From assembly GCA_019358935.1 (NCBI GenBank), contig JAHHIK010000146.1, forward strand, positions 1 through 16,882: 16,882 bases of DNA. The letters are read 5' to 3'. The position numbers and the translations under genes were made by a program. This stretch comes from Tolypothrix carrinoi HA7290-LM1. GTDB lineage: Bacteria > Cyanobacteriota > Cyanobacteriia > Cyanobacteriales > Nostocaceae. A model generated the notes under the pieces. That model ran no database searches. It was not told the origin of the DNA and saw only the letters and a list, made by a program, of their open reading frames with translations. Below, piece after piece: positions 84 through 16,882 of the stretch (positions are counted from its first letter, which is position 1; every line of letters begins with the position of its first letter).

Positions 84-124
84 TTCTTGGAATCCCCGTG
101 TCTTCAGACCGGGGAGGATGTCAA
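1..124 (+). mobile_element. Right end of an IS200/IS605-family tnpB element, including the omegaRNA/reRNA scaffold (element continues upstream of the window)
   Basis: GAAT (90-93) precedes a subterminal hairpin TCCCCG..TCT-TC-AGA..CGGGGA (93-115), followed by TCAA (121-124). This is the IS608-type right-end guide and cleavage-site arrangement. A second hairpin CCAAGAA/TTCTTGG lies at 73-90. Confidence 0.85.
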
Positions 125-843
125 TTAGTCGAATTTATCCGTTTGAAGCTTTTTTAAGTGCTGAGGGGAAACCGCTAATTGAGTATGAAGTGAAGGAGGT
201 TAAGAAAGTCGAGAAAGAGCGCCGCGATGGTCAAAATATAATTAAGCGATCGCCCGGAGATGTTAAACGCACTCCTGGCTACCGCTCTGGCGATGCTTTT
301 AAGATGAGAATCGGTATGGGGACGGTGCTGGAGCAATCGGGTGATGAGCTAGTAGAAAAAGCATCCGGTTCGGCTCTGTGTCGTATGGCGCTTTGGCAAT
401 ACGTACTGTGTCAGGTGGAGACTGGTAAACTAAAGCCCAACTCGGTTACAAAGCGACTTCTAGACTATAAAAACGCTTTGAAGAATCTCACAACCCCTGC
501 AATAACCCATCGCCTTATGTGGCACAAGCGTTCGTTTTGTAGATCCACTTGTATACGCGCGAATATTTTTGATGAACGCGCAACGCGTCTCCCTTTGGGA
601 GAAGGCTGTCCACATAAGGCTTGCGTAGGACTCGCCCCTCAAGGCAAGCAACTACTTAACGGTAAGCACTTACAAGGTAAACTTATGGCGAAAGTTGCGA
701 ATATGCTGTTTGATGAATTGGTTCAGGCGATCGCGCACCCCAACAACGCTCCTAGAGTGAACTGGTATAGGATTGAAGCTGAAGAGACTAAAGCTTTGCT
801 TTCTTGTAACGTTAAGACGGATAGAGGAAGTGTTAGGCGTTGA
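125..843 (+). pseudogene. C-terminal part of an IS110-family-like transposase/recombinase, interrupted at its 5' side by the IS605 element
   Basis: FKMRIGMGTVLEQSGD...ASGSALCRMALWQY resembles the Transposase_20 pattern G-x-x-P/T-x-x-x-Q-S-G...G-x-x-x-x-R-x-A-L. The ORF-track ATG at 118 belongs to the IS end (GATGTCAA), and no N-terminal DEDD domain is present in the window. Confidence 0.6.
494..639. mobile_element. Putative 141-bp in-frame miniature insertion flanked by CCCCT direct repeats
   Basis: CCCCT occurs at 494-498 and 635-639 (141 bp apart, 47 codons). An internal perfect inverted repeat GCCTTATGTGG (512-522) / CCACATAAGGC (610-620) is present, and the segment contains a GCGTCTCC..GGAGAAGG motif also seen near 11930. 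Confidence 0.5.
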
Positions 844-993: not shown

Positions 994-1743
994 ATGGTAC
1001 AACAAGTAACGCCCCTTCCTAACGCTCTTGTCATCTACCCAGAAAGCGACGGACAACCGATGGCAGATAATACCGAACAATTTCAATGGATAGTAAAAAT
1101 TAAAGAAAATTTAGAAATCTTATTTGCATTACAGGATAATGTCTTTGTCGCAGGTAATTTACTTTGGTATGCTGTCCAAGGCGATGTGAAAGTCCGACAA
1201 GCACCTGATGCAATGGTTGTGTTTGGTAGACCAAAAGGAAAACGCGGTTCATATAAACAGTGGGAAGAAGATAATATTCCCCCACAGGTGGTATTTGAAA
1301 TTTTATCGCCTGGTAACAAAACTAAAGATATGGCAAATAAACTGCTGTTCTATCAACGCCACGGTGTAGAAGAGTATTATATCTACGATCCGCAGACGAA
1401 TGAATTAACTGGGTTGCTGCGTGAGCAAGAGAATTTAGAAGTTATTGAAGAGATAAATAATTGGGTTAGTCCTCGCTTGGAAATACGTTTTGAACTTACA
1501 CCGAATACTCTAGAAATTTTCTCTCCCTCAGGACGAAGGTTTCTCACTTCTGTAGAACTAGATCAAATACGAGAACACGAACGTCAACGCGCTGAACACG
1601 AACGTCAACGAGCTGAACACGAACATCAACGCGCTGAACAAGAACGTCAGGACAAAGAAGCAGTGCAGCTTCAGTTGGAGGAAGAACGACAGCGCTATCA
1701 AGATTTGTTAAGGCGACTACAAGAAAGAGGAATTGATCTGTGA
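994..1743 (+). CDS. Uma2 family PD-(D/E)XK endonuclease with C-terminal coiled-coil repeat
   Basis: Motifs YPESDGQPMADNT, QAPDAMV, FEILSPGN and GVEEYYIYDP; GAGG RBS-like sequence at 980; HERQRAE repeats. Confidence 0.92.
   Translation: MVQQVTPLPNALVIYPESDGQPMADNTEQFQWIVKIKENLEILFALQDNVFVAGNLLWYAVQGDVKVRQAPDAMVVFGRPKGKRGSYKQWEEDNIPPQVVFEILSPGNKTKDMANKLLFYQRHGVEEYYIYDPQTNELTGLLREQENLEVIEEINNWVSPRLEIRFELTPNTLEIFSPSGRRFLTSVELDQIREHERQRAEHERQRAEHEHQRAEQERQDKEAVQLQLEEERQRYQDLLRRLQERGIDL
1573..1650 (+). repeat. 21-bp coding tandem repeat (about 3.7 units, EHERQRA)
   Basis: GAACACGAACGTCAACGCGCT-type units start at 1573, 1594 and 1615, with a partial unit at 1636. Confidence 0.9.
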
Positions 1744-1763: not shown

Positions 1764-2333
1764 CTACCACACTTTATTCAAATTCAACTCAAACCCTGGT
1801 AAAACATCTTCACCGGATACAGTTGTAGGAGATTGCAATATTTCTACCTCTTTCCCTAGACGATAAATTTCTACTGTTTTATTCTTGGGGTCAAGCAACC
1901 AACCTAAACGAACCCCGTTGTTAATATACTCTTGCATCTTTTCTCTAAGTTTTTTCAGGGAATCACTACTAGAACGCAATTCCACGACAAAATCAGGTGC
2001 GAGAGGAGAAAATTCTTCTTCTTGTTGAGTTTGGGTTAAAGCCTCCCATTTTTCATTACTTACCCAAGAAGCATCGGGTGAGTAAACTGCACCATTAGGC
2101 AAGGTAAAACCACTGGAAGAGTCAAATACAATACCTAAATTTGTGCGATCGTTCCAATTCCATAGTTGAGCATTCAAACCAGAGTTTTTCTTACCCGTCC
2201 ACGGATACGTTGGAGGCATAATTATAACTTCTCCAGTTGCAGCACGTTCTAACTGTAAATCTTGATTAGCTTGGCACAGTTCCTTAAATCCCTCTGCACC
2301 CAGATTGGGGATATTCAAAGTGATGGCGTTCAT
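1764..2333 (-). CDS. Uma2 family endonuclease
   Basis: Motifs LERAATGEVIIMPP, FDSSSGFTLPNGA, SPDASW, PDFVVELRS and NGVRLGWLLDP. Confidence 0.93.
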   Translation of the reverse strand: MNAITLNIPNLGAEGFKELCQANQDLQLERAATGEVIIMPPTYPWTGKKNSGLNAQLWNWNDRTNLGIVFDSSSGFTLPNGAVYSPDASWVSNEKWEALTQTQQEEEFSPLAPDFVVELRSSSDSLKKLREKMQEYINNGVRLGWLLDPKNKTVEIYRLGKEVEILQSPTTVSGEDVLPGFELNLNKVW

Positions 2334-5242: not shown

Positions 5243-5273
5243 AACTCGGTTTCTCTGCGGAACCGAGTTTTTT
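5243..5273 (+). terminator. Rho-independent terminator-like hairpin
   Basis: AACTCGGTT / AACCGAGTT stem running into a T tract, 25 nt after the stop codon. Confidence 0.7.
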
Positions 5274-5302
5274 ATTATATAGCTAATAGTTAACAATTAT
5301 TC

Positions 5303-5343
5303 AGATCCCCGACTTCGCTCTTTGTTGTCGGGGATGTTTTTTT
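5303..5343. repeat. ATCCCCGAC...GTCGGGGAT palindromic dispersed repeat or second terminator
   Basis: 9-bp stem at 5305-5313 / 5327-5335 followed by a T run; resembles a common Nostocales repeat. Confidence 0.65.
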
Positions 5344-5536
5344 AGCTATTTGCTTTGTTAGTACCTTAGTTCTTGTTGATTTTCTTATCTCCCTCTTTAA
5401 GCATAGATAACTAATATATCTTGTGACGGAAGGCTACAGTAAAAACATTAAGCTAGTTTGTAATAGTGATAAAAAACAATTTCAAAGTTATCAATAAGCT
5501 TTGAAATAAAAACTATTCTTTATAAGGACAACAAAA

Positions 5537-5719
5537 ATGAGCATAGAAGATCGCGCTAAAGCTGCTGCTAAAAATGTAGAAGGTAAAGCTCAAGAAGCAC
5601 TGGGAAATGTTACCGGCGACCCAGAAGATAAAGCAGAAGGCAAAGCAAAGCAAGCCGAAAGCGAAGTACGTCACGGTGTTGAAGACGTAAAAGATAACGT
5701 CAAAAAAGCAATTGACTAA
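5537..5719 (+). CDS. csbD: CsbD family general stress protein
   Basis: 60 aa with EGKAQEALGNVTGD...AEGKAKQAE; AAGGA RBS at 5524. Confidence 0.92.
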   Translation: MSIEDRAKAAAKNVEGKAQEALGNVTGDPEDKAEGKAKQAESEVRHGVEDVKDNVKKAID

Positions 5720-5914
5720 GCAGAATGCTTTTTGCTTTATGTCTGTAGGATAGGGTGCATTCCCTGACTGGATGGCTGAAAAACGTAAATCCCCACATTC
5801 CTTTTATCCCCCTTGAATGGGGGATAAAGGTGCAAAGGATAGATGTGCAGACTAAATTCCCAAATTAAGGGATGCTTACTACCAAGAGCGATTTTAAGAT
5901 ATAAAGAATAACAA

Positions 5915-7634: not shown

Positions 7635-8222
7635 GTTGTGGTGCAACATGTGAGTATGAAAACGCAGACTAGAAACTACTAAGTAATTTAGTACAATTTA
7701 AAGAGTATTCACACAAATTTTATACAATCTACAACTAAATTTAGCCTACAAGCCTTATAAAATCTAACTTTTGGTAGGTGAATATATCTAAAAGTAACCT
7801 CCACTAGTTTAAAGATTCCATCAAGACAAGCCTCTACTAGTTGATTTTTTCTACCTAACTAGTAACACTGATTACTGTGCAGTTCGGGAATAAACACTGA
7901 AGACATCGCCAGCAACTCGAAGTAAAAGCCAGATTAAAGACTGAAGTCATATCTGCGCTTTCTTGTCACAAGCAGCACCCACCTATCGCCGCGTGAATGC
8001 CTCTTGCGGGAGTTTGTGCAGCAACTTTGAGATAAAGAGCGTATCTCACTACCGGGTAAATCTACCATCAACCTTTACCTATTCATGGAAGTGAGTTCAA
8101 TGACAAGATTTCAAGTTAGAAATAAGTTACGCAAAGCTGGTTCTAAAGCAAAATCTATTGCTGTGGAAAGACTGGGGAATGTTAGTCAAGGCACATCCAG
8201 ACTGAGCATAAGCAAAGCTAGT

Positions 8223-9038
8223 ATGAAACTAGTAACAATGAAGTCGTTCATTCGAATCTTCGCATATGGCACTACCACTGTATTGGGAATGAGTGTAGTA
8301 GCAGGTTCAGCGCACGCAACTAGCTTTACACTAACTTCTCCAACCTCAGGTGGAACGGTGGCTAATGGAATTAGCCCAGTAGGTGGAATCGTTTTGGATT
8401 TAATTGGTCAAAACGATGTACGGGTGACTAGTCAGTTAGCAGCTAATCAGCTGTACCAAGGCTTCTATAGTAACAATCCAGGTAATATCGGTACTCAAAC
8501 TGGTTTTACTTCAGCAATTACCGGAGCATTAGGAGGCGGTTTGAAACAGGCTGCCATTCGCTTTACCCTTTATGACGGTGATACAGCCGCAGGCGACTTC
8601 GACTTTAATGACAATACACTACGACTCAATGGTTTGAACTTTGGCAATTGGAGCAATGTTAATACTCAAAACACTGACGCTAATGGAAATGCTGGTTCTG
8701 CCAATTTTAGTGGCGGCGGTTTCCGCGATAATACACTTGACACAGGCTGGTTCTCTAGTAGTGATGCTGCACTTCTCACTAGCTTCTATAACAGCGTTGT
8801 GAATACACAACAAGTTGTTTACCAAGTTGATGATGTAGATCCGGGTGAGAACTTTTATGACTTCACTCAAGGGATTAGTTCAAACTTCACAAACGTGGGT
8901 CAGGGTCCAACAGTACAACCACCCTCTAATGCCGTCCCCGAACCTTTTACCATCTTAGGTTCATTAACAGCCGGTGGTATCGGTGTAGCATTACGCCGCA
9001 AGCGTCAGCAGCAACAAAAAGAAGCCGCCAAAGTCTAA
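8223..9038 (+). CDS. PEP-CTERM sorting-domain surface protein
   Basis: C-terminal VPEPFTILGSLTAGGIGVALRRKR and a signal peptide ending in AHA. The start is probably 8223 or 8238 rather than 8085. The mature region is rich in G/N/T/D. Confidence 0.92.
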   Translation: MKLVTMKSFIRIFAYGTTTVLGMSVVAGSAHATSFTLTSPTSGGTVANGISPVGGIVLDLIGQNDVRVTSQLAANQLYQGFYSNNPGNIGTQTGFTSAITGALGGGLKQAAIRFTLYDGDTAAGDFDFNDNTLRLNGLNFGNWSNVNTQNTDANGNAGSANFSGGGFRDNTLDTGWFSSSDAALLTSFYNSVVNTQQVVYQVDDVDPGENFYDFTQGISSNFTNVGQGPTVQPPSNAVPEPFTILGSLTAGGIGVALRRKRQQQQKEAAKV

Positions 9039-9060
9039 CCTTAGCAGGTTTAACAAGCAA

Positions 9061-9256
9061 ATCGGTAATTGGTAATAGCGAATCGGTAATTGGTAATAGC
9101 GAATTGGTAATTGGTAATTGGGAAAGCGTTCTTTTCCCCTTTCCCATGCACCTCTTTTCCCCCCTGAAAATCCCCATTACCCATTACCCATTACCCATTA
9201 CCCATTACCCATTACCCATTACCCATTACCCATTACCCATTCCCCATTCCCCATTA
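9061..9256. repeat. STRR arrays: GGTAATT-type (21-bp superunit) then 12 x CCCATT(A/C)
   Basis: ATCGGTAATTGGTAATAGCGA units at 9061-9122; CCCATTA/CCCATTC x12 at 9173-9256. Confidence 0.92.
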
Positions 9257-9286
9257 AATATTAGCTGAAACTACCGCTACATCTAC

Positions 9287-10153
9287 ATGAAATCCATCCA
9301 CCTGACCCCGGTCAGTCGTTTAAAAAATGCCCAATTCTGGCTATTAGCAATAGGCGCGGGCTTAATTGCAATTCACATAACTTTAACTTGTAAATCAAAT
9401 ATTCCTAGCCTTTTAGGAAGCAGTGTTTTATTTTGGATTGCTGTCTCTTCTCTCATTTGGGAAAAACGCCACAGCTTAAATCTAGAAAGTGGAGTTTTTC
9501 CCAGCTTTTTAGGAATATCAATCATTGCAATTGTACTTATCAAAAGCGCATCTTTAACAAGTTTTGGTGGCTTTCTATTCCTCTCACCTTTCATTCTTGC
9601 CTTTGGTCTTGCTCTGCTAGCTTCTGGCTTTCGTGGATTAAAGCAATATAAAGGAGAATTGCTGGCGCTGTTTTTTATTGGCGCACCTAAACTATTACCA
9701 TCATTCCTGATTAAGCATATAACTTTACTCACGGCAAAACTTGCCGCTTTTATCCTTTGGTACACAGGTTTTGAAATTACTCGCTCTGGAGTAAACATTT
9801 ATCTGCCAACAGGAAGTATAGAAGTAGCTAGTGGCTGTTCTGGTGTACAACTCATCTTCCAACAATTGGGTTTAGCAATAATTTTTATTTTAATGTTTCC
9901 TCTAAATAAACAGCAAAAAATTCTTGCGCCGATAGTAGCGGCAATTTTGGGATTTATCGTCAATGGGGTACGAGTTGCTGTCATGGGTGTTATAGTCGCA
10001 AAAGGCAATCAGGAAGCGTTTGAATATTGGCATCATGGAGATGGTTCTTTAATTTTTTCCATGATTGCCGTCATACTATTTGGTTTATTTTGCTGGTTTT
10101 TACTAAATATCAATGAAACAAAAAACAAACAGCACAAGTCTTCAATAAGGTGA
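9287..10153 (+). CDS. crtA: Cyanoexosortase A
   Basis: Multi-pass membrane protein with exosortase catalytic motifs EVASGCSG (Cys), NGVRVA (Arg) and EYWHHGDGS (His); adjacent to a PEP-CTERM gene. Confidence 0.92.
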   Translation: MKSIHLTPVSRLKNAQFWLLAIGAGLIAIHITLTCKSNIPSLLGSSVLFWIAVSSLIWEKRHSLNLESGVFPSFLGISIIAIVLIKSASLTSFGGFLFLSPFILAFGLALLASGFRGLKQYKGELLALFFIGAPKLLPSFLIKHITLLTAKLAAFILWYTGFEITRSGVNIYLPTGSIEVASGCSGVQLIFQQLGLAIIFILMFPLNKQQKILAPIVAAILGFIVNGVRVAVMGVIVAKGNQEAFEYWHHGDGSLIFSMIAVILFGLFCWFLLNINETKNKQHKSSIR

Positions 10154-10806
10154 TGATTATTTGGAAACAATTTCGCCTTCCACTTTTGGCTCTCACCTTT
10201 AGCGGTGTCTTTTTAGTTTTGGGCAAAGTCATTCTATTTCCCAACGCCGAAAAAAGCACGCTTCTCCCCGTGGTTTTTCCAGATGCAGTACCATTATCAG
10301 AATGGCAGTTAAATACAAAATATTCTCAGCCTACATTAACTAAAGAACATTCTAATCTCATTGCTCAAAAGCATTATCAATACACTCAAAAAGACCAGTC
10401 CCTAAATATCGAAATGCGCTATGTGACAATTTTTGATGTTAACAAACTTATCAAAGAATACACTTCGATTTCATCCTCTCCTGTGGTGCGTCAGCAAGAT
10501 AAAGTAGGTTACTACGGGCTTGGCGTTGACAAAGGACGAGCATATTTGAGTGCCTGTATTAACCCACAAGGCAGCAGTACCTTCACCTATCAACAGTTTA
10601 TCCAAAATCGCTCTTTATACGATCGCCCTACAGAGCGTCTATTACCTTGGTTAATGGGCAAAAAGCCAATCGAAGATAAACGTTGTTTATGGGCGCATTT
10701 GTCGATTACTGTACAGAATTCTACCCCAGAAGCTGCTTACAAAAAACTGGAAAACGCCTGGTTTTCTTGGCATCAATGGTGGCAACCCCGCTTTCCAAAA
10801 CTTTAA
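10150..10806 (+). CDS. Cyanoexosortase A system-associated protein
   Basis: Overlaps the crtA stop (GTGA). It has an N-terminal TM segment, motifs YLSACINPQGSSTFT and DKRCLWAHLS, and a C-terminal WFSWHQWWQPRFP. Confidence 0.85.
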   Translation: MMIIWKQFRLPLLALTFSGVFLVLGKVILFPNAEKSTLLPVVFPDAVPLSEWQLNTKYSQPTLTKEHSNLIAQKHYQYTQKDQSLNIEMRYVTIFDVNKLIKEYTSISSSPVVRQQDKVGYYGLGVDKGRAYLSACINPQGSSTFTYQQFIQNRSLYDRPTERLLPWLMGKKPIEDKRCLWAHLSITVQNSTPEAAYKKLENAWFSWHQWWQPRFPKL

Positions 10807-10807
10807 A

Positions 10808-11085
10808 GTGGATAGGGGATAGTGGATGGTGGATAGTAGATAGTGGATGGTGGATAGTGGATGGTGGATAGTTGTTAGTAGATAGTGGATGATGGATAGT
10901 GAATAGTGGATAGTAGTCAACAACTAACAACCAACAACCCTTCGGGTTCACCACTTGCTACAACGGGGGGAACCCCCGCAACGCAGTGGTTCACCAACAA
11001 CCAACAACCAACAACCAACAACCAACAACTAACAACTAACAACCAACAACTAACACTTAACAACTAACAACCAACAACCAACAAC
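10808..11085. repeat. STRR arrays TGGAT(A/G)G then CAAC(C/T)AA, with an embedded small dispersed repeat
   Basis: TGGATAG/TGGATGG at 10808-10915. CAACCAA/CAACTAA at 10918-11085 is interrupted at about 10938-10994 by CCCTTCGGGTTCACCACTTGC...GCAGTGGTTCACC. Confidence 0.9.
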
Positions 11086-11805
11086 ATGACTAAATCAAAT
11101 AGTGATAGATTTACTCCCATAGTACAAGAGTTACAAGCGTTTGCTTTTAGTCAGCAAGGGTCGATGACTATTTTGCGATCGCTTGGCTATGGTCTGCTAT
11201 TATTAGCACTTTTTGACATCGTTGAGATGTTTGTTCCACCCAACTTTATGAACCCCGCTTGGGAATTTAAAACTTTTGGAGCGCTGGTTGAACGAGTACC
11301 CGTTCCATTAATCGGTTTGGTGTTGGTATTTTTTGGAGAAATGAATTCGCGAACGAAATGGGAATTCCCTATATTAAAGTTATTATCTTGGTTAACTTTG
11401 TTATTTGCCTTATTGTTTTTCTTACTAATTCCTTTAGGAATTGGTAACACTCTCCGGCTCAATAATCAAAGTGCTGCTCAAATTAGTACTTTATCTAAGC
11501 AACAATTATCTCAAGCCGAACAGTTTGAAAAGCAACTGAACCAAGCTACACCGCAACAAATTGATAATTTTATCAAAAGCCAAGGTCGCTCATTAGACGG
11601 CAAAAATCCTGACGAATTAAAAACTCAAGTATTGTCACAAGTTTCTCAAGCGAAGAAACAAATTCAAACTCAAGCTGAAGCAACTCAATCTTCTCGAGGT
11701 TTAAGTTTAATTAAGTCTTCTGTCAAATGGAATTTGGGAGCTTTAGTTGCTAGTGGTTTGTTTATTAGTATTTGGAGAGGAACTCGCTGGGCAAGAACAA
11801 ATTGA
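11086..11805 (+). CDS. HpsJ-like membrane protein, cyanoexosortase A-associated
   Basis: Motif PPNFMNPAWEFKTFGALVERVPVPLIGLVLVFFG; three N-terminal TM segments, a Q-rich coiled coil and a C-terminal TM (SVKWNLGALV); gene context supports the call. Confidence 0.8.
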   Translation: MTKSNSDRFTPIVQELQAFAFSQQGSMTILRSLGYGLLLLALFDIVEMFVPPNFMNPAWEFKTFGALVERVPVPLIGLVLVFFGEMNSRTKWEFPILKLLSWLTLLFALLFFLLIPLGIGNTLRLNNQSAAQISTLSKQQLSQAEQFEKQLNQATPQQIDNFIKSQGRSLDGKNPDELKTQVLSQVSQAKKQIQTQAEATQSSRGLSLIKSSVKWNLGALVASGLFISIWRGTRWARTN

Positions 11806-13908: not shown

Positions 13909-14089
13909 GGCATCGGGCATCGGGCATCGGGCATCGGGCATCGGGCAAGCGTCCAAGTAGGCAAGTGAAATACGCGATCGCTTCTTTTTATTCCCATTGC
14001 CCATTGCGAGCGTGCCCATTGCCCATTGCGAGCGTGCCCATTACCCATTACCCAATGCCCATTGCCCATTGCGAGCGTGCCCATTGCCC
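13908..14089. repeat. STRR arrays GGGCATC x5 then CCCATT(G/A) units with CGAGCGTG spacers
   Basis: GGGCATC units at 13908-13942; CCCATTG-type units at 13993-14089. Confidence 0.9.
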
Positions 14090-14232
14090 CAAAAATGAGG
14101 ATGTCAAACAATGCTTTGATCTACACCATTAGATTAGAGTAAAGTAAACAAGTGTAAAGAAGTATCACTTTTACCGTATTCTTTTAAAACCACTTCTTCA
14201 CGTCTACTGTTGAAATTTGTATAAAAACGTCC

Positions 14233-15043: not shown

Positions 15044-15186
15044 GAGTTATGAGTTATGAGTTATGAGTTATGAGTTATGAGTTTTTAATTAACTCCTCAC
15101 TCCCCACTTTCGTACAGACGTTACGAAAGGAACGTCTTTACCGCTTGGACGCTCCTCCTAACTCCTAACTCCTAACTTTTAACTCC
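15044..15186. repeat. STRR arrays GAGTTAT x5 then CTCCTAA x3
   Basis: Arrays at 15044-15085 and 15155-15186 flank a GTACAGACGTT...AACGTCTTTAC palindrome. Confidence 0.88.
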
Positions 15187-15924: not shown

Positions 15925-16374
15925 TTATGTAAAACTTAACCAAGCGAATACATCTGCAACTGATAATTGCCAGTCTTTTAATACACTGAGAACTGGTAAA
16001 ATATCTTGTCCTTCTTTAATTTCTGGTAATTGGTTAGGTTGAAAAATCATTACAGATTCATCTTCAGGGTCAAGAAACCAACCTAGCTTTGTACCATTTT
16101 GTATAGAAAATGTAATTTTACGGATAACTCGGTTTGGAGATTGTTCGGGAGAAAGAATTTCAATTATCCAATCTGGATAAATTTCAAATTTATTAGCTAC
16201 TCTCCCTTTGGCATCAAGAGGAATTCTTTGCCATTCAAACACAGCAATATCTGGAACTAAAGAGCGATCGCCAAATGTGCAGCGTAATTCAGTAAAAGCA
16301 TAAGCTAATTTTTGTTGTTTACCAACTTGATTGATGGCAGAGACTAATTCAGTTTGAATTGTACTATGTTTTCC
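15925..16374 (-). pseudogene. Uma2 family endonuclease, 3' part, interrupted by an IS607-type element
   Basis: GKHSTIQ...ELRCTFGDRSLVPDIAVF...PDWIIEILSPEQ...GWFLDP is Uma2-like. The sequence upstream of GKH is IS right end rather than the usual ...KPMPQ N-terminus. Confidence 0.85.
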
Positions 16375-16757
16375 GTTACATAAGACCTCCTCAAATCTAT
16401 CCAAAGCTATGCAAGTCTGCTTAGATTTGATGCTTACTTCCTGTTTCATCCGAGAGAGTCGGCTCTTACTCGTCCACAGGCTGTTCACCGCCTAACTGAC
16501 GGCTACACACAAATTAATCGAAGCATTTAAGTCACGGTCACAAATGAAGCCACAGTGACCGCACTCAAACACTCTTTCAGATAGCGAGAGTGTTTCTTTT
16601 TTGGTTCCGCAGTTAGAGCAAGTCTTGCTGCTGGGGAACCATCTATCGACTACAACCAGTTCACTGCCGTACAGTTCACACTTGTATGTCAGCTGACGGC
16701 GAAACTCGAAAAAGGACATATCCGCAATGGCTTTAGCCAGCTTGTGGTTTGCCATCA
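16373..16757 (-). mobile_element. Right part of an IS607-type tnpB element, with the omegaRNA scaffold at about 16373-16500
   Basis: On the minus strand, the sequence after tnpB reads GCCTGTGGAC...GCCGAC...GGATGAAACAGGAAGTAA, then a TCAAATCTA/TAGATTTGA stem (16391-16430), and ends TGTAACGG. The terminal GG is consistent with IS607 serine-recombinase crossover at GG. Confidence 0.78.
16492..16757 (-). CDS. tnpB: RNA-guided endonuclease TnpB, 3' exon
   Basis: MANHKLAKAIAD..FFEFRRQLTYK, zinc finger PSSKTCSNCG...CGHCG and RuvC-III DRDLNASINL are all intact. The frame is cut at 16757 by an intron. Confidence 0.92.
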
Positions 16758-16882
16758 GTTAGAGTCGAGAGGGGATATTATTCCCCGTCCCTCTCTGTTA
16801 GAACCGTGCGTGCAACTTTTGCTGCACACGGCTCCCGATATTCTTAAGGGATAACCCTTTTACTCATGTGGGTATAATCGTG
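16758..16882 (-). mobile_element. 3' end of a group II intron (domains V and VI)
   Basis: Domain V is GAGCCGTGTGCAGCAAAAGTTGCACGCACGGTTC (16834-16801, 34 nt, AGC triad). Domain VI is the stem GAGAGGGACGGGGA...TCCCCTCTCGACTCTAAC, ending in the canonical AY (AC) at 16758. Confidence 0.93.
16844..16882 (-). CDS. Last residues of the intron-encoded RT/maturase, probably the end of an HNH domain (partial)
   Basis: The frame reads HDYTHMSKRVIP* and stops 9 nt before domain V. H-x-x-x-H fits the end of an HNH domain, but only 12 codons are visible. Confidence 0.6.
   Translation of the reverse strand, partial: HDYTHMSKRVIP

What the first reader, a model, noticed from the sequence alone, without database searches (positions are those of the whole stretch)
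15925..16882. Three-layer nest: group II intron inside an IS607-type tnpB inside a Uma2 gene
Seen: intron domains V/VI end in ...CTCTAAC joined directly to TG ATG GCA AAC CAC, which splits the codon before MANHKL. The tnpB zinc finger and RuvC-III remain intact, and the IS end TGTAACGG runs into Uma2 GKHST. Known: in TnpB this position follows the RuvC-II motif EDLNVxGM, and group II introns retrohome into multicopy IS elements. Inference: TnpB here would be produced only after splicing. The intron could hitch-hike on IS607 transposition and TnpB-driven retention while using a conserved catalytic-motif sequence as its homing site. This would be a group II counterpart to the group I IStrons, but placed inside the nuclease gene.
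Basis: partly seen in the sequence, partly recalled or inferred. Interest (0 to 1): 0.75.

Follow-up and report, generated by a model that had tools for sequence, protein, structure and literature searches.

The report
Mobile intron homing into tnpB genes
A self-splicing mobile intron sits exactly in frame inside the RNA-guided nuclease gene (tnpB) of a small transposon and has hit the same conserved spot in several unrelated tnpB genes of this cyanobacterium; this is real, but the habit has already been described, and only the target spot is new.

Summary
The contig ends inside a collapsed multicopy group IIB intron. Its 5' end lies on contig C85, joined to this window by synteny. The 5' exon ends EDLNVSG-A as predicted, and the ligated exons give an undecayed 362-aa TnpB. 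The host is a tnpA-less IS607-type element. It replaced the first 40 codons of Uma2 rather than splitting the gene. Of 5 identical intron 3' ends in the genome, 4 lie at the same RuvC-II codon in TnpBs only 38-59% identical; the fifth is an intergenic site with the same DNA motif. So the intron spreads by retrohoming to a codon-conserved motif. I found no sign of hitch-hiking, and the architecture is the inverse of an IStron. Identical RT-HNH introns at one site in divergent cyanobacterial TnpB genes were published in 2016 (PMC4810608, Fig. S9), and this scan has found intron-in-tnpB nestings on other DNA. The RuvC-II site and IS607-type hosts were not in what I read. Splicing is untested.

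The parts
16844..16882 (-). Last 12 codons and stop of the intron-encoded RT-maturase-HNH protein (HDYTHMSKRVIP*)
   Evidence: The same C-terminus ends the 524-aa IEP of sister introns L070 and L114. L070's IEP matches RVT_1, RVT_N and GIIM.
16758..16836 (-). Group IIB intron domain V (about 16835-16800) and domain VI with bulged branch A at about 16765; 3' splice site after 16758. The intron continues beyond the contig end; its 5' end is at G000:C85:37138.
16492..16757 (-). tnpB 3' exon: last 2 nt of the split Met codon, then MANHKL..., zinc finger, RuvC-III (DRDLNA), stop
16373..16515 (-). Right end of the IS607-type element and presumed omega-RNA scaffold, overlapping the tnpB stop, ending TATGTAACGG
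   Evidence: Conserved in 15 family members, with pairs that change on both sides. No Rfam family reached.
16373..16374 (-). GG core dinucleotide shared by the element end and the Uma2 Gly codon
15925..16374 (-). Uma2 (PF05685) gene remnant from codon 41 (GKHST...) to the stop; its first 16 nt would be the TnpB guide (inferred)
   Evidence: 92-97% identical to intact genes in 10 same-genus relatives

Best explanation
A recently active chloroplast-like group IIB intron (RT-maturase-HNH, about 2.2 kb) has retrohomed into a short DNA motif, roughly AAYGTNNNNGGNA|T. TnpB genes supply that motif again and again, because it is what the codons N-V-x-G-M after the RuvC-II glutamate spell. EBS2 (NACGU) reads the N-V codons, EBS1 reads the x-G-M codons, and insertion falls after the A of ATG. 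Each insertion is an independent homing event into a different tnpB. One of these hosts is this non-autonomous IS607-type element, which had earlier landed at a GG in Uma2 and lost 139 bp of flanking host DNA. tnpB genes are abundant, dispensable and horizontally mobile, so they act as a renewable safe harbour. Splicing would restore a complete TnpB, but that follows from precise homing and need not be selected. Shown: anatomy, exon junction, copy pattern, EBS/IBS register in sister introns, element ends. Inferred: the C85-C146 join (synteny), this copy's own EBS sequences, the order of events, splicing, and the safe-harbour argument.
For: Five 3' ends identical over 120-125 nt; 4 are followed by tnpB at the same codon. 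The four hosts are 38-59% identical in protein and 52-58% in DNA over the 3' exon. Two have IS607-type GG ends and two IS605-type ...TCAA ends. The fifth copy (C166 + C6) is an intergenic site, empty in 3 of 3 relatives that cover it, and reads TTAAATGTGTCTGGGA|T. The same site is occupied in G009 (complete 2052-nt intron), in L071/L260 and in L113. L070 sits in a tnpB 16 nt further downstream, at a DNA look-alike of the motif. EBS1/IBS1 pair at 5-6 of 6 in 19 of 19 related introns where both could be read. The ligated TnpB departs at 3 of 170 invariant columns, against 0-8 for 17 intact relatives. The site is empty in 18 of 18 readable homologues. Introns in tnpB are common here: 9 of 23 intron 3' ends in this genome and 14 of 119 in relatives, against 0.67% tnpB DNA. 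Precedent.
Against: This copy's own domain I is not in the assembly. The EBS1 inferred from indels in the probable source run (UGCCCG) pairs at only 4 of 6 with each of the two readable 5' exons, weaker than in sister introns, though unlisted substitutions could change it. The simple motif occurs at 336 empty sites, only 5 of them tnpB RuvC-II. Base pairing alone therefore does not explain 4 of 5 (P 2e-6; 0.008 with two further upstream bases), and protein-read bases or purifying selection must be added. The 5' exons of 3 of the 4 tnpB hosts are not in the assembly. EBS3 could not be located.
Confidence: 0.8

Rival explanations
1. Functional symbiosis: the intron makes TnpB splice-dependent and is spread and retained by IS607 transposition and TnpB-driven restorative homing, as a group II analogue of IStrons.
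For: The ligated gene, the omega-RNA region and both element ends look intact. Seven IS607 tnpA genes over the cut-off exist elsewhere in the genome and might act in trans. All 9 of 9 and 14 of 14 tnpB-associated 3' ends are in sense orientation. A possible composite transposition is discussed, and left undecided, in PMC4810608 Fig. S9.
Against: No intron-plus-element composite occurs twice in the assembly. There is no tnpA in cis. 18 of 18 readable family homologues lack the intron. The G009 copy at the same site has lost the HNH end of its IEP. An intact host gene is expected anyway for a recent insertion. No RNA data from this organism.
Confidence: 0.15
2. Dead end or host benefit: the intron splices poorly here and simply knocks out a nuclease. 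Such insertions accumulate in tnpB because loss of TnpB is neutral or mildly beneficial, with no specialisation of the intron.
For: Inferred EBS1 pairing is only 4 of 6. Introns of many lineages hit tnpB at 18 or more different positions along the gene. One intron with a similar 5' end (L064) has tnpB upstream in antisense. PMC7306698 (parts 1-3 of 4 read) raises both hiding in mobile elements and repression of them.
Against: Seven of 11 insertions of the close lineage fall at one codon across four genomes or samples, and EBS2 matches the N-V codons. That is site-specific homing rather than scatter. The strong sense bias is not expected from random disruption.
Confidence: 0.3
3. Assembly artefact or exon shuffling: C85 and C146 are not the two sides of one insertion, or recombination between intron copies has paired unrelated exons.
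For: No contig or laid record spans the locus. Only 2 5' ends were found for 5 3' ends. 139 bp of flank are missing.
Against: In relatives L002, L005 and L006 the DNA next to the C85 element end runs directly into the Uma2 gene of this window. Both tnpB halves have the same level of identity to the same 17 intact homologues (75-79% and 75-89%). The other 5' end (C166) is accounted for by C6.
Confidence: 0.05

Closest known systems
RT-HNH group II introns targeting TnpB of IS605-1_CC and IS605B-1_CC in Coleofasciculus chthonoplastes (Kapitonov, Makarova, Koonin 2016, PMC4810608; main-text passages, supplementary file 1 passages on Fig. S9; supplementary file 2 could not be searched)
   Same: Identical copies of one RT-maturase-HNH intron inserted independently at one position of TnpB genes only about 60% identical, in sense orientation, in a cyanobacterium. 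The authors state there are many other examples at different TnpB positions (data not shown).
   Different: Their site is near residue 50 (EQQ|NC/SL); here it is 7 codons after the RuvC-II glutamate. Hosts here include IS607-type as well as IS605-type elements, and are 38-59% identical. EBS/IBS pairing and an intergenic look-alike site are shown here.
TeI3 family F4 introns in ISEL1 (IS200 family) of Thermosynechococcus elongatus (PMC2882425, passages)
   Same: Cyanobacterial IIB intron with EBS sequences tuned to a conserved site in an insertion element; named there as a proliferation mechanism.
   Different: F4 introns are ORF-less and sit in copies of one element; here the sister introns encode a full IEP and the hosts are unrelated tnpB genes.
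RmInt1 in ISRm2011-2 and RmInt2 in ISRm17 of Sinorhizobium meliloti (PMC8496243, passages)
   Same: Group II intron whose natural target lies within a multicopy insertion sequence.
   Different: The target is one IS family, not a protein motif shared by divergent paralogues; no RNA-guided nuclease is involved.
IStrons, including the IS607-family CboIStron (10.1101/2023.11.20.567912, passages; PMC13565253, passages)
   Same: A self-splicing intron, an IS607-type element with GG ends, TnpB and an omega-RNA at one locus.
   Different: IStrons fuse a group I intron to the element so that the whole element, tnpB included, is spliced out of the host mRNA. Here a group II intron with its own mobility interrupts tnpB, and the element stays in the host gene.
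Non-autonomous IS607-family elements (PMC6188088, passages; PMC13565253, passages)
   Same: GG at both termini, no inverted repeats, no target duplication, G-rich 5' flank, tnpB and right-end RNA.
   Different: No serine-recombinase tnpA in cis; a 59-codon divergent ORF lies in the left end; 139 bp of host DNA are missing at the site.

Membership tests
Group IIB (chloroplast-like) mobile intron | 5' end GUGYG | tested here: met
   GTGCG at G000:C85:37138 and C166:12033; tied to this 3' end by synteny
Group IIB (chloroplast-like) mobile intron | Catalytic domain V; domain VI with bulged A about 8 nt from an AY end | tested here: met
   RF00029 60 bits; fold z -6.6 with the bulged A at -8 and end AC. 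The -8 rule for IIB is recalled.
Group IIB (chloroplast-like) mobile intron | EBS1/IBS1 and EBS2/IBS2 pairing at this site | tested here: inconclusive
   Register established in sister introns: EBS1 5-6 of 6 in 19 of 19, EBS2 4-5 of 5 in 7 of 8. Own EBS inferred from run X1: EBS1 4 of 6, EBS2 4 or 5 of 5, with unlisted substitutions possible.
Group IIB (chloroplast-like) mobile intron | EBS3/IBS3 | tested here: inconclusive
   +1 is T in every copy of the close lineage with a 3' exon, but no covarying intron base was found
Group IIB (chloroplast-like) mobile intron | Intact RT-maturase-HNH ORF in this copy | tested here: inconclusive
   Only 12 codons are in the window. Sisters L070 and L114 (95-96% identical over the last 216 nt) encode 524 aa. 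Contigs of run X1 cover 27 of 30 bins of the L070 stretch but none spans it.
Group IIB (chloroplast-like) mobile intron | Class CL1 versus CL2 by IEP phylogeny | not tested
   Best solved relative is 6ME0, E 1e-67. A length of 524 aa with an HNH end fits the description of CL2B in PMC8919778 (passages). No tree was built.
Group IIB (chloroplast-like) mobile intron | Splicing and retrohoming activity | not testable with these tools
   No RNA run of this organism; best RNA share 0.18
IS607 family | GG at both termini, no terminal inverted repeats or target duplication, G-rich 5' flank | tested here: met
   Left end ..GGCAG-GG-CTAGGAACTGTAAC at C85:36031; right end ..TATGTAAC-GG at window 16373; same end motifs in family members at other loci
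IS607 family | Serine-recombinase tnpA in the element | tested here: not met
   None on the C85 element. Present beside 75%-identical TnpBs in 2 of the 29 loci searched, L249 and L257, so this is a non-autonomous derivative of an IS607 lineage.
IS607 family | TnpB with RuvC D-E-D triad and zinc finger | tested here: met
   After in-script ligation: GVDLG 182, IEDL 267, DRDLNA 348, CxxC 321 and 340
IS607 family | NCBIfam IS607_TnpB cut-off | tested here: inconclusive
   The halves were scanned apart. Both pass guided_TnpB; both are below the IS607_TnpB and IS200_TnpB cut-offs, and IS200_TnpB scores slightly higher.
IS607 family | Structured right-end omega-RNA | tested here: met
   Consensus structure over 15 right ends with several pairs changing on both sides (no shuffle control). 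No Rfam match.
IStron | Group I (IA2) intron fused to the element's left end | tested here: not met
   The intron is group II and lies 274 codons into tnpB
IStron | Splice sites coincide with the element ends, so the whole element leaves the host mRNA | tested here: not met
   Splice sites are internal to tnpB; the element ends are about 1.1 kb upstream and 385 nt downstream
TnpB-targeting group II introns of PMC4810608 Fig. S9 | Identical copies at one position of divergent TnpB genes, sense orientation | tested here: met
TnpB-targeting group II introns of PMC4810608 Fig. S9 | Same target site (residue 50/51) and 2511-bp intron | tested here: not met
   Site here is profile position 282, after RuvC-II; sisters are 2052-2210 nt. 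Same habit, different lineage.

The most novel reading that the evidence does not exclude
Cyanobacterial TnpB as a whole is a standing homing substrate shared out among intron lineages, each tuned to the codons of one RuvC catalytic motif: RuvC-I (3 identical intron ends in 3 divergent tnpBs of G009), RuvC-II (this lineage) and RuvC-III (G026 and this genome). The RuvC-II lineage makes TnpB splice-dependent, is copied along when spliced TnpB drives restorative homing, and places an HNH-coding sequence between RuvC-II and RuvC-III. That is the topology of IscB/Cas9 (position recalled), so the lineage would be a living, testable model of the proposed intron origin of that HNH.
Probability: 0.2. 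Interest if true: 0.65.

Novelty: new member of a known kind. Interest (0 to 1): 0.33.

Why it matters
It gives a clean worked example of how one intron can use a protein motif as a DNA target across transposon families. It comes with a natural intergenic control and named empty targets in the same genome (C50, C84, C95, C100, C174). Practically, many cyanobacterial tnpB genes that look fragmentary are intact genes split by an intron and a contig break, which matters for TnpB mining. If the spliced allele proved active and self-retaining, it would link intron splicing to control of an RNA-guided nuclease, but nothing here shows that.

Tried and rejected
Extending the contig directly: impossible, the window is the whole contig. 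Reading this copy's domain I from reads: only contigs of the probable source run were available; they gave indels but not all substitutions, and no record bridged intron and exon. X1 depth over the intron (about 5,250-5,850) is about ten times that of other introns (about 490-590), a weak hint of more than five copies; the tool warns that depth is not copy number. RNA evidence: shares of 0.11-0.18 only; run X21 was laid on the sister intron and shows other organisms' introns, nothing on splicing. Exact domain VI pattern: found only in this genome among 401 of the order and in 3 metagenome records. C166's upstream sequence first looked like a decayed tnpB; rejected, it is chromosomal intergenic DNA shared with relatives. 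L070 was first taken as a non-tnpB control; corrected, it lies in a tnpB. One search used a site offset by one codon and was redone. One search had a wrong range for L236 and was replaced. EBS3 search failed. An 820-codon 'open frame' spanning a tnpB in G535 proved to be another transposase inserted in tnpB, not an HNH fusion. The small left-end ORF has no Pfam family and only unnamed cyanobacterial Atlas clusters. Literature searches that returned no paper describing the RuvC-II site; the library lacks most subscription journals. PMC3073962, PMC10055086 and PMC7923331 were read as passages and held nothing on introns inside tnpB. No structure or complex prediction was run, as the fold was not in question.

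Full report
Observation. The window is the whole of contig G000:C146. On the minus strand its last 958 bases hold, in order: 12 codons of an intron-encoded protein; group II intron domains V/VI (RF00029, 60 bits, 16836-16758; fold z -6.6); a direct join to TG ATG GCA AAC CAC; an 87-aa TnpB C-terminal frame (PF07282); about 120 nt of right end closing with TATGTAACGG; and a Uma2 gene from GKHST onward (PF05685).

The other side of the intron. The 125-nt intron end is 100% identical at five contig ends or near-ends (C146, C123, C151, C27, C6), so the assembly broke at a collapsed repeat. Two contigs end in the matching 5' end (C85, C166). In same-genus relatives the Uma2 gene is intact (10 of 10), and in L002, L005 and L006 the DNA upstream of it is the DNA that precedes the element on C85. 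Ligating the exons in a script gives one 362-aa frame with the RuvC D, E and D motifs and both CxxC pairs. It is 75-79% and 75-89% identical in its two halves to 17 intact homologues, and departs at 3 of 170 invariant columns against 0-8 for those homologues. Unspliced read-through ends 16 codons into the intron. No read or contig spans the locus, so the join rests on synteny and protein concordance.

The host element. It begins GG-CTAGGAACTGTAAC about 285 nt before tnpB and ends TATGTAAC-GG, as do family members at other loci, with G-rich 5' flanks. These are IS607 hallmarks (PMC6188088 and PMC13565253, passages). Two of 29 loci searched carry a serine-recombinase tnpA next to 75%-identical TnpB, but this element has none and holds a 59-codon divergent ORF instead. 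Seven IS607 tnpA genes lie elsewhere in the genome; whether they recognise these ends was not tested. The right end is conserved and can fold with compensatory changes in 15 members (no shuffle control), and the intron does not touch it. Against relatives, 139 bp between two CAG-GG sites, holding the Uma2 ribosome-binding site and first 40 codons, are gone. The third layer is therefore an insertion with an adjacent deletion (mechanism inferred), not a gene split in two.

What the intron targets. Four of the five 3' ends are followed by tnpB at the same codon. The four hosts are 38-59% identical in protein and 52-58% in DNA. C146 and C123 end like IS607 elements, C151 and C27 like IS605 elements, and none has a second copy in the assembly. 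The fifth copy joins C166 to C6 at an intergenic site that is empty in 3 of 3 relatives covering it (2 more did not) and reads TTAAATGTGTCTGGGA|T, a DNA look-alike of N-V-S-G-M codons. Outside this genome the close lineage (91-97% identical over its length, or with the same domain VI) sits at the same tnpB codon in G009 (complete intron, L016), in L071/L260 and in L113. It sits 16 nt further downstream in another tnpB in L070, and outside tnpB in L114 and L115. That makes 8 of 11 insertions in tnpB and 7 at one codon. L058 gave the same junctions as L016 and was counted once. L115 may not be independent of this strain. L064 and L083 were left out because their genome has no 3' end above 83% identity; neither is at the RuvC-II site. 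For C123, C151, C27 and L113 only the 3' exon is seen.

Mechanism. Aligning domain I of related introns located EBS1 and EBS2. EBS1 pairs with the last six exon bases at 5-6 of 6 in 19 of 19 introns where both were readable, and EBS2 pairs at 4-5 of 5 in 7 of 8. In this lineage EBS2 is NACGU and pairs with bases -12 to -8, the N-V codons; EBS1 covers the x-G-M codons. For this strain's own intron I have only the difference tables from laying the probable source run on L070. They imply EBS1 UGCCCG if no unlisted substitution falls there, which pairs 4 of 6 with each readable site, including the four exon-terminal bases at the window's locus. This is weaker than in the sisters and is the main open point. 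The minimal motif occurs at 336 empty sites, 5 of them tnpB RuvC-II; adding two upstream bases shared by both readable sites leaves 24 and 2. Four of five in tnpB is still more than either gives (P 2e-6 and 0.008; partly circular, and it assumes the unread exons fit). Protein-read target bases, or loss of insertions in useful genes, must therefore contribute.

How general. In this genome 9 of 23 RF00029 matches are followed by tnpB by a locally built profile, 2 more probably, all in sense, against 0.67% tnpB DNA (an underestimate, since collapsed elements and contigs under 10 kb are missing). In relatives 14 of 119 are, all in sense (119 of 226 matches, taken from the top of the list; kin are not independent). 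Sites are spread along the gene, with repeated use just after RuvC-I (G009: 3 identical intron ends in hosts 53-56% identical), around RuvC-II (at least four lineages) and at RuvC-III (G026 and this genome). Occupancy of the RuvC-II site is low: 18 of 18 readable homologues are empty; 6 of 24 loci were unreadable by the script, one of them the G009 locus known to be occupied.

Comparison with what is known. Supplementary Fig. [quoted passage not shown] It reports identical RT-HNH intron copies at one position of TnpB genes about 60% identical in Coleofasciculus, in sense orientation, mentions many other examples at other positions (data not shown), and suggests such an intron as the source of the IscB/Cas9 HNH (passages). 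Introns homing into insertion sequences are also described for T. elongatus (PMC2882425, passages) and S. meliloti (PMC8496243, passages), and as a general hiding strategy (PMC7306698, parts 1-3 of 4). IStrons differ in every defining feature. My searches returned no description of the RuvC-II site or of IS607-type hosts; supplementary file 2 of PMC4810608 could not be searched. Earlier notes of this scan report similar nestings in other genomes. One of them names the same 2016 paper, which I had opened in the same round of calls.

Verdict. Real, well anchored, and a new member of a known kind. The hitch-hiking and IStron-counterpart ideas have no support in these data, and splicing remains untested. 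Interest 0.33. The boldest reading not excluded is a set of intron lineages each tuned to one RuvC motif, with splice-gated TnpB and an HNH placed where IscB/Cas9 carry theirs (PMC6452270, passages, describes the HNH insert; its exact position is recalled). I give it 0.2.

Noticed in passing
window 15925-16488 (-): The right end of the element is in frame with the Uma2 remnant, giving a 187-codon ORF with possible GTG/ATG starts inside the omega-RNA region, nearly the length of the intact gene. Probably chance; it could yield a chimeric Uma2.
   Followed up: no
G000:C84 1-5000 (-): Deeper nest: an IS605-type tnpB element sits inside the RT ORF of one group II intron and itself carries two further introns, one complete at 2739-346 and one starting at 116, whose 3' side is probably C66.
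   Followed up: partly
G000:C151 1-342: This copy of the intron is interrupted 216 nt before its 3' end by a repeat shared with 9 other contig ends, probably a multicopy insertion sequence in the HNH region.
   Followed up: partly
L122 3072-3248 (-) (G000:C85 36071-36247): 59-codon divergent ORF in the left end in place of tnpA. It is 98% identical in L236 although that TnpB is only about 80% identical, and is related to an ORF at the end of a 16-copy collapsed element of this genome. No Pfam family; unnamed cyanobacterial clusters in the Atlas.
   Followed up: partly
G000:C180 8554-8630; L200, L224, L230: Group II introns followed by IscB-like sequence; at C180 the insertion lies just before an HNH motif. 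Identified by eye from the translation only.
   Followed up: no
L191-L193 (G009), L153-L155 (G026), G000:C65 and C93, G000:C70 and C125, L321, L322: Other intron lineages repeatedly inserted at fixed tnpB positions: after RuvC-I, at RuvC-III and in the helix between RuvC-I and RuvC-II.
   Followed up: partly
L016 2694-4745: The complete G009 intron at the same tnpB site is 2052 nt and its IEP (465 aa) lacks the HNH end.
   Followed up: partly
window 994-1743 (+), 1764-2333 (-); G000:C26 134-690: Two further Uma2-family genes in the window; the closest paralogue on C26 has a frameshift and an internal stop.
   Followed up: no
window 8085-11805: Exosortase gene (PF09721, 9287-10153) beside a protein ending in a VPEP motif (8085-9038) and two unannotated ORFs; looks like an ordinary cyanobacterial PEP-CTERM cluster (recalled).
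   Followed up: no
window 118-843 (+): 241-codon ORF at the contig's left end with no Pfam match.
   Followed up: no
window 13909-14090, 15045-15085, 10850-10960: Short tandem heptamer repeats between genes, typical of heterocystous cyanobacteria (recalled).
   Followed up: no
L318 (G535:C46): A tnpB split by a different transposase-like ORF fused in frame to its 3' half.
   Followed up: partly
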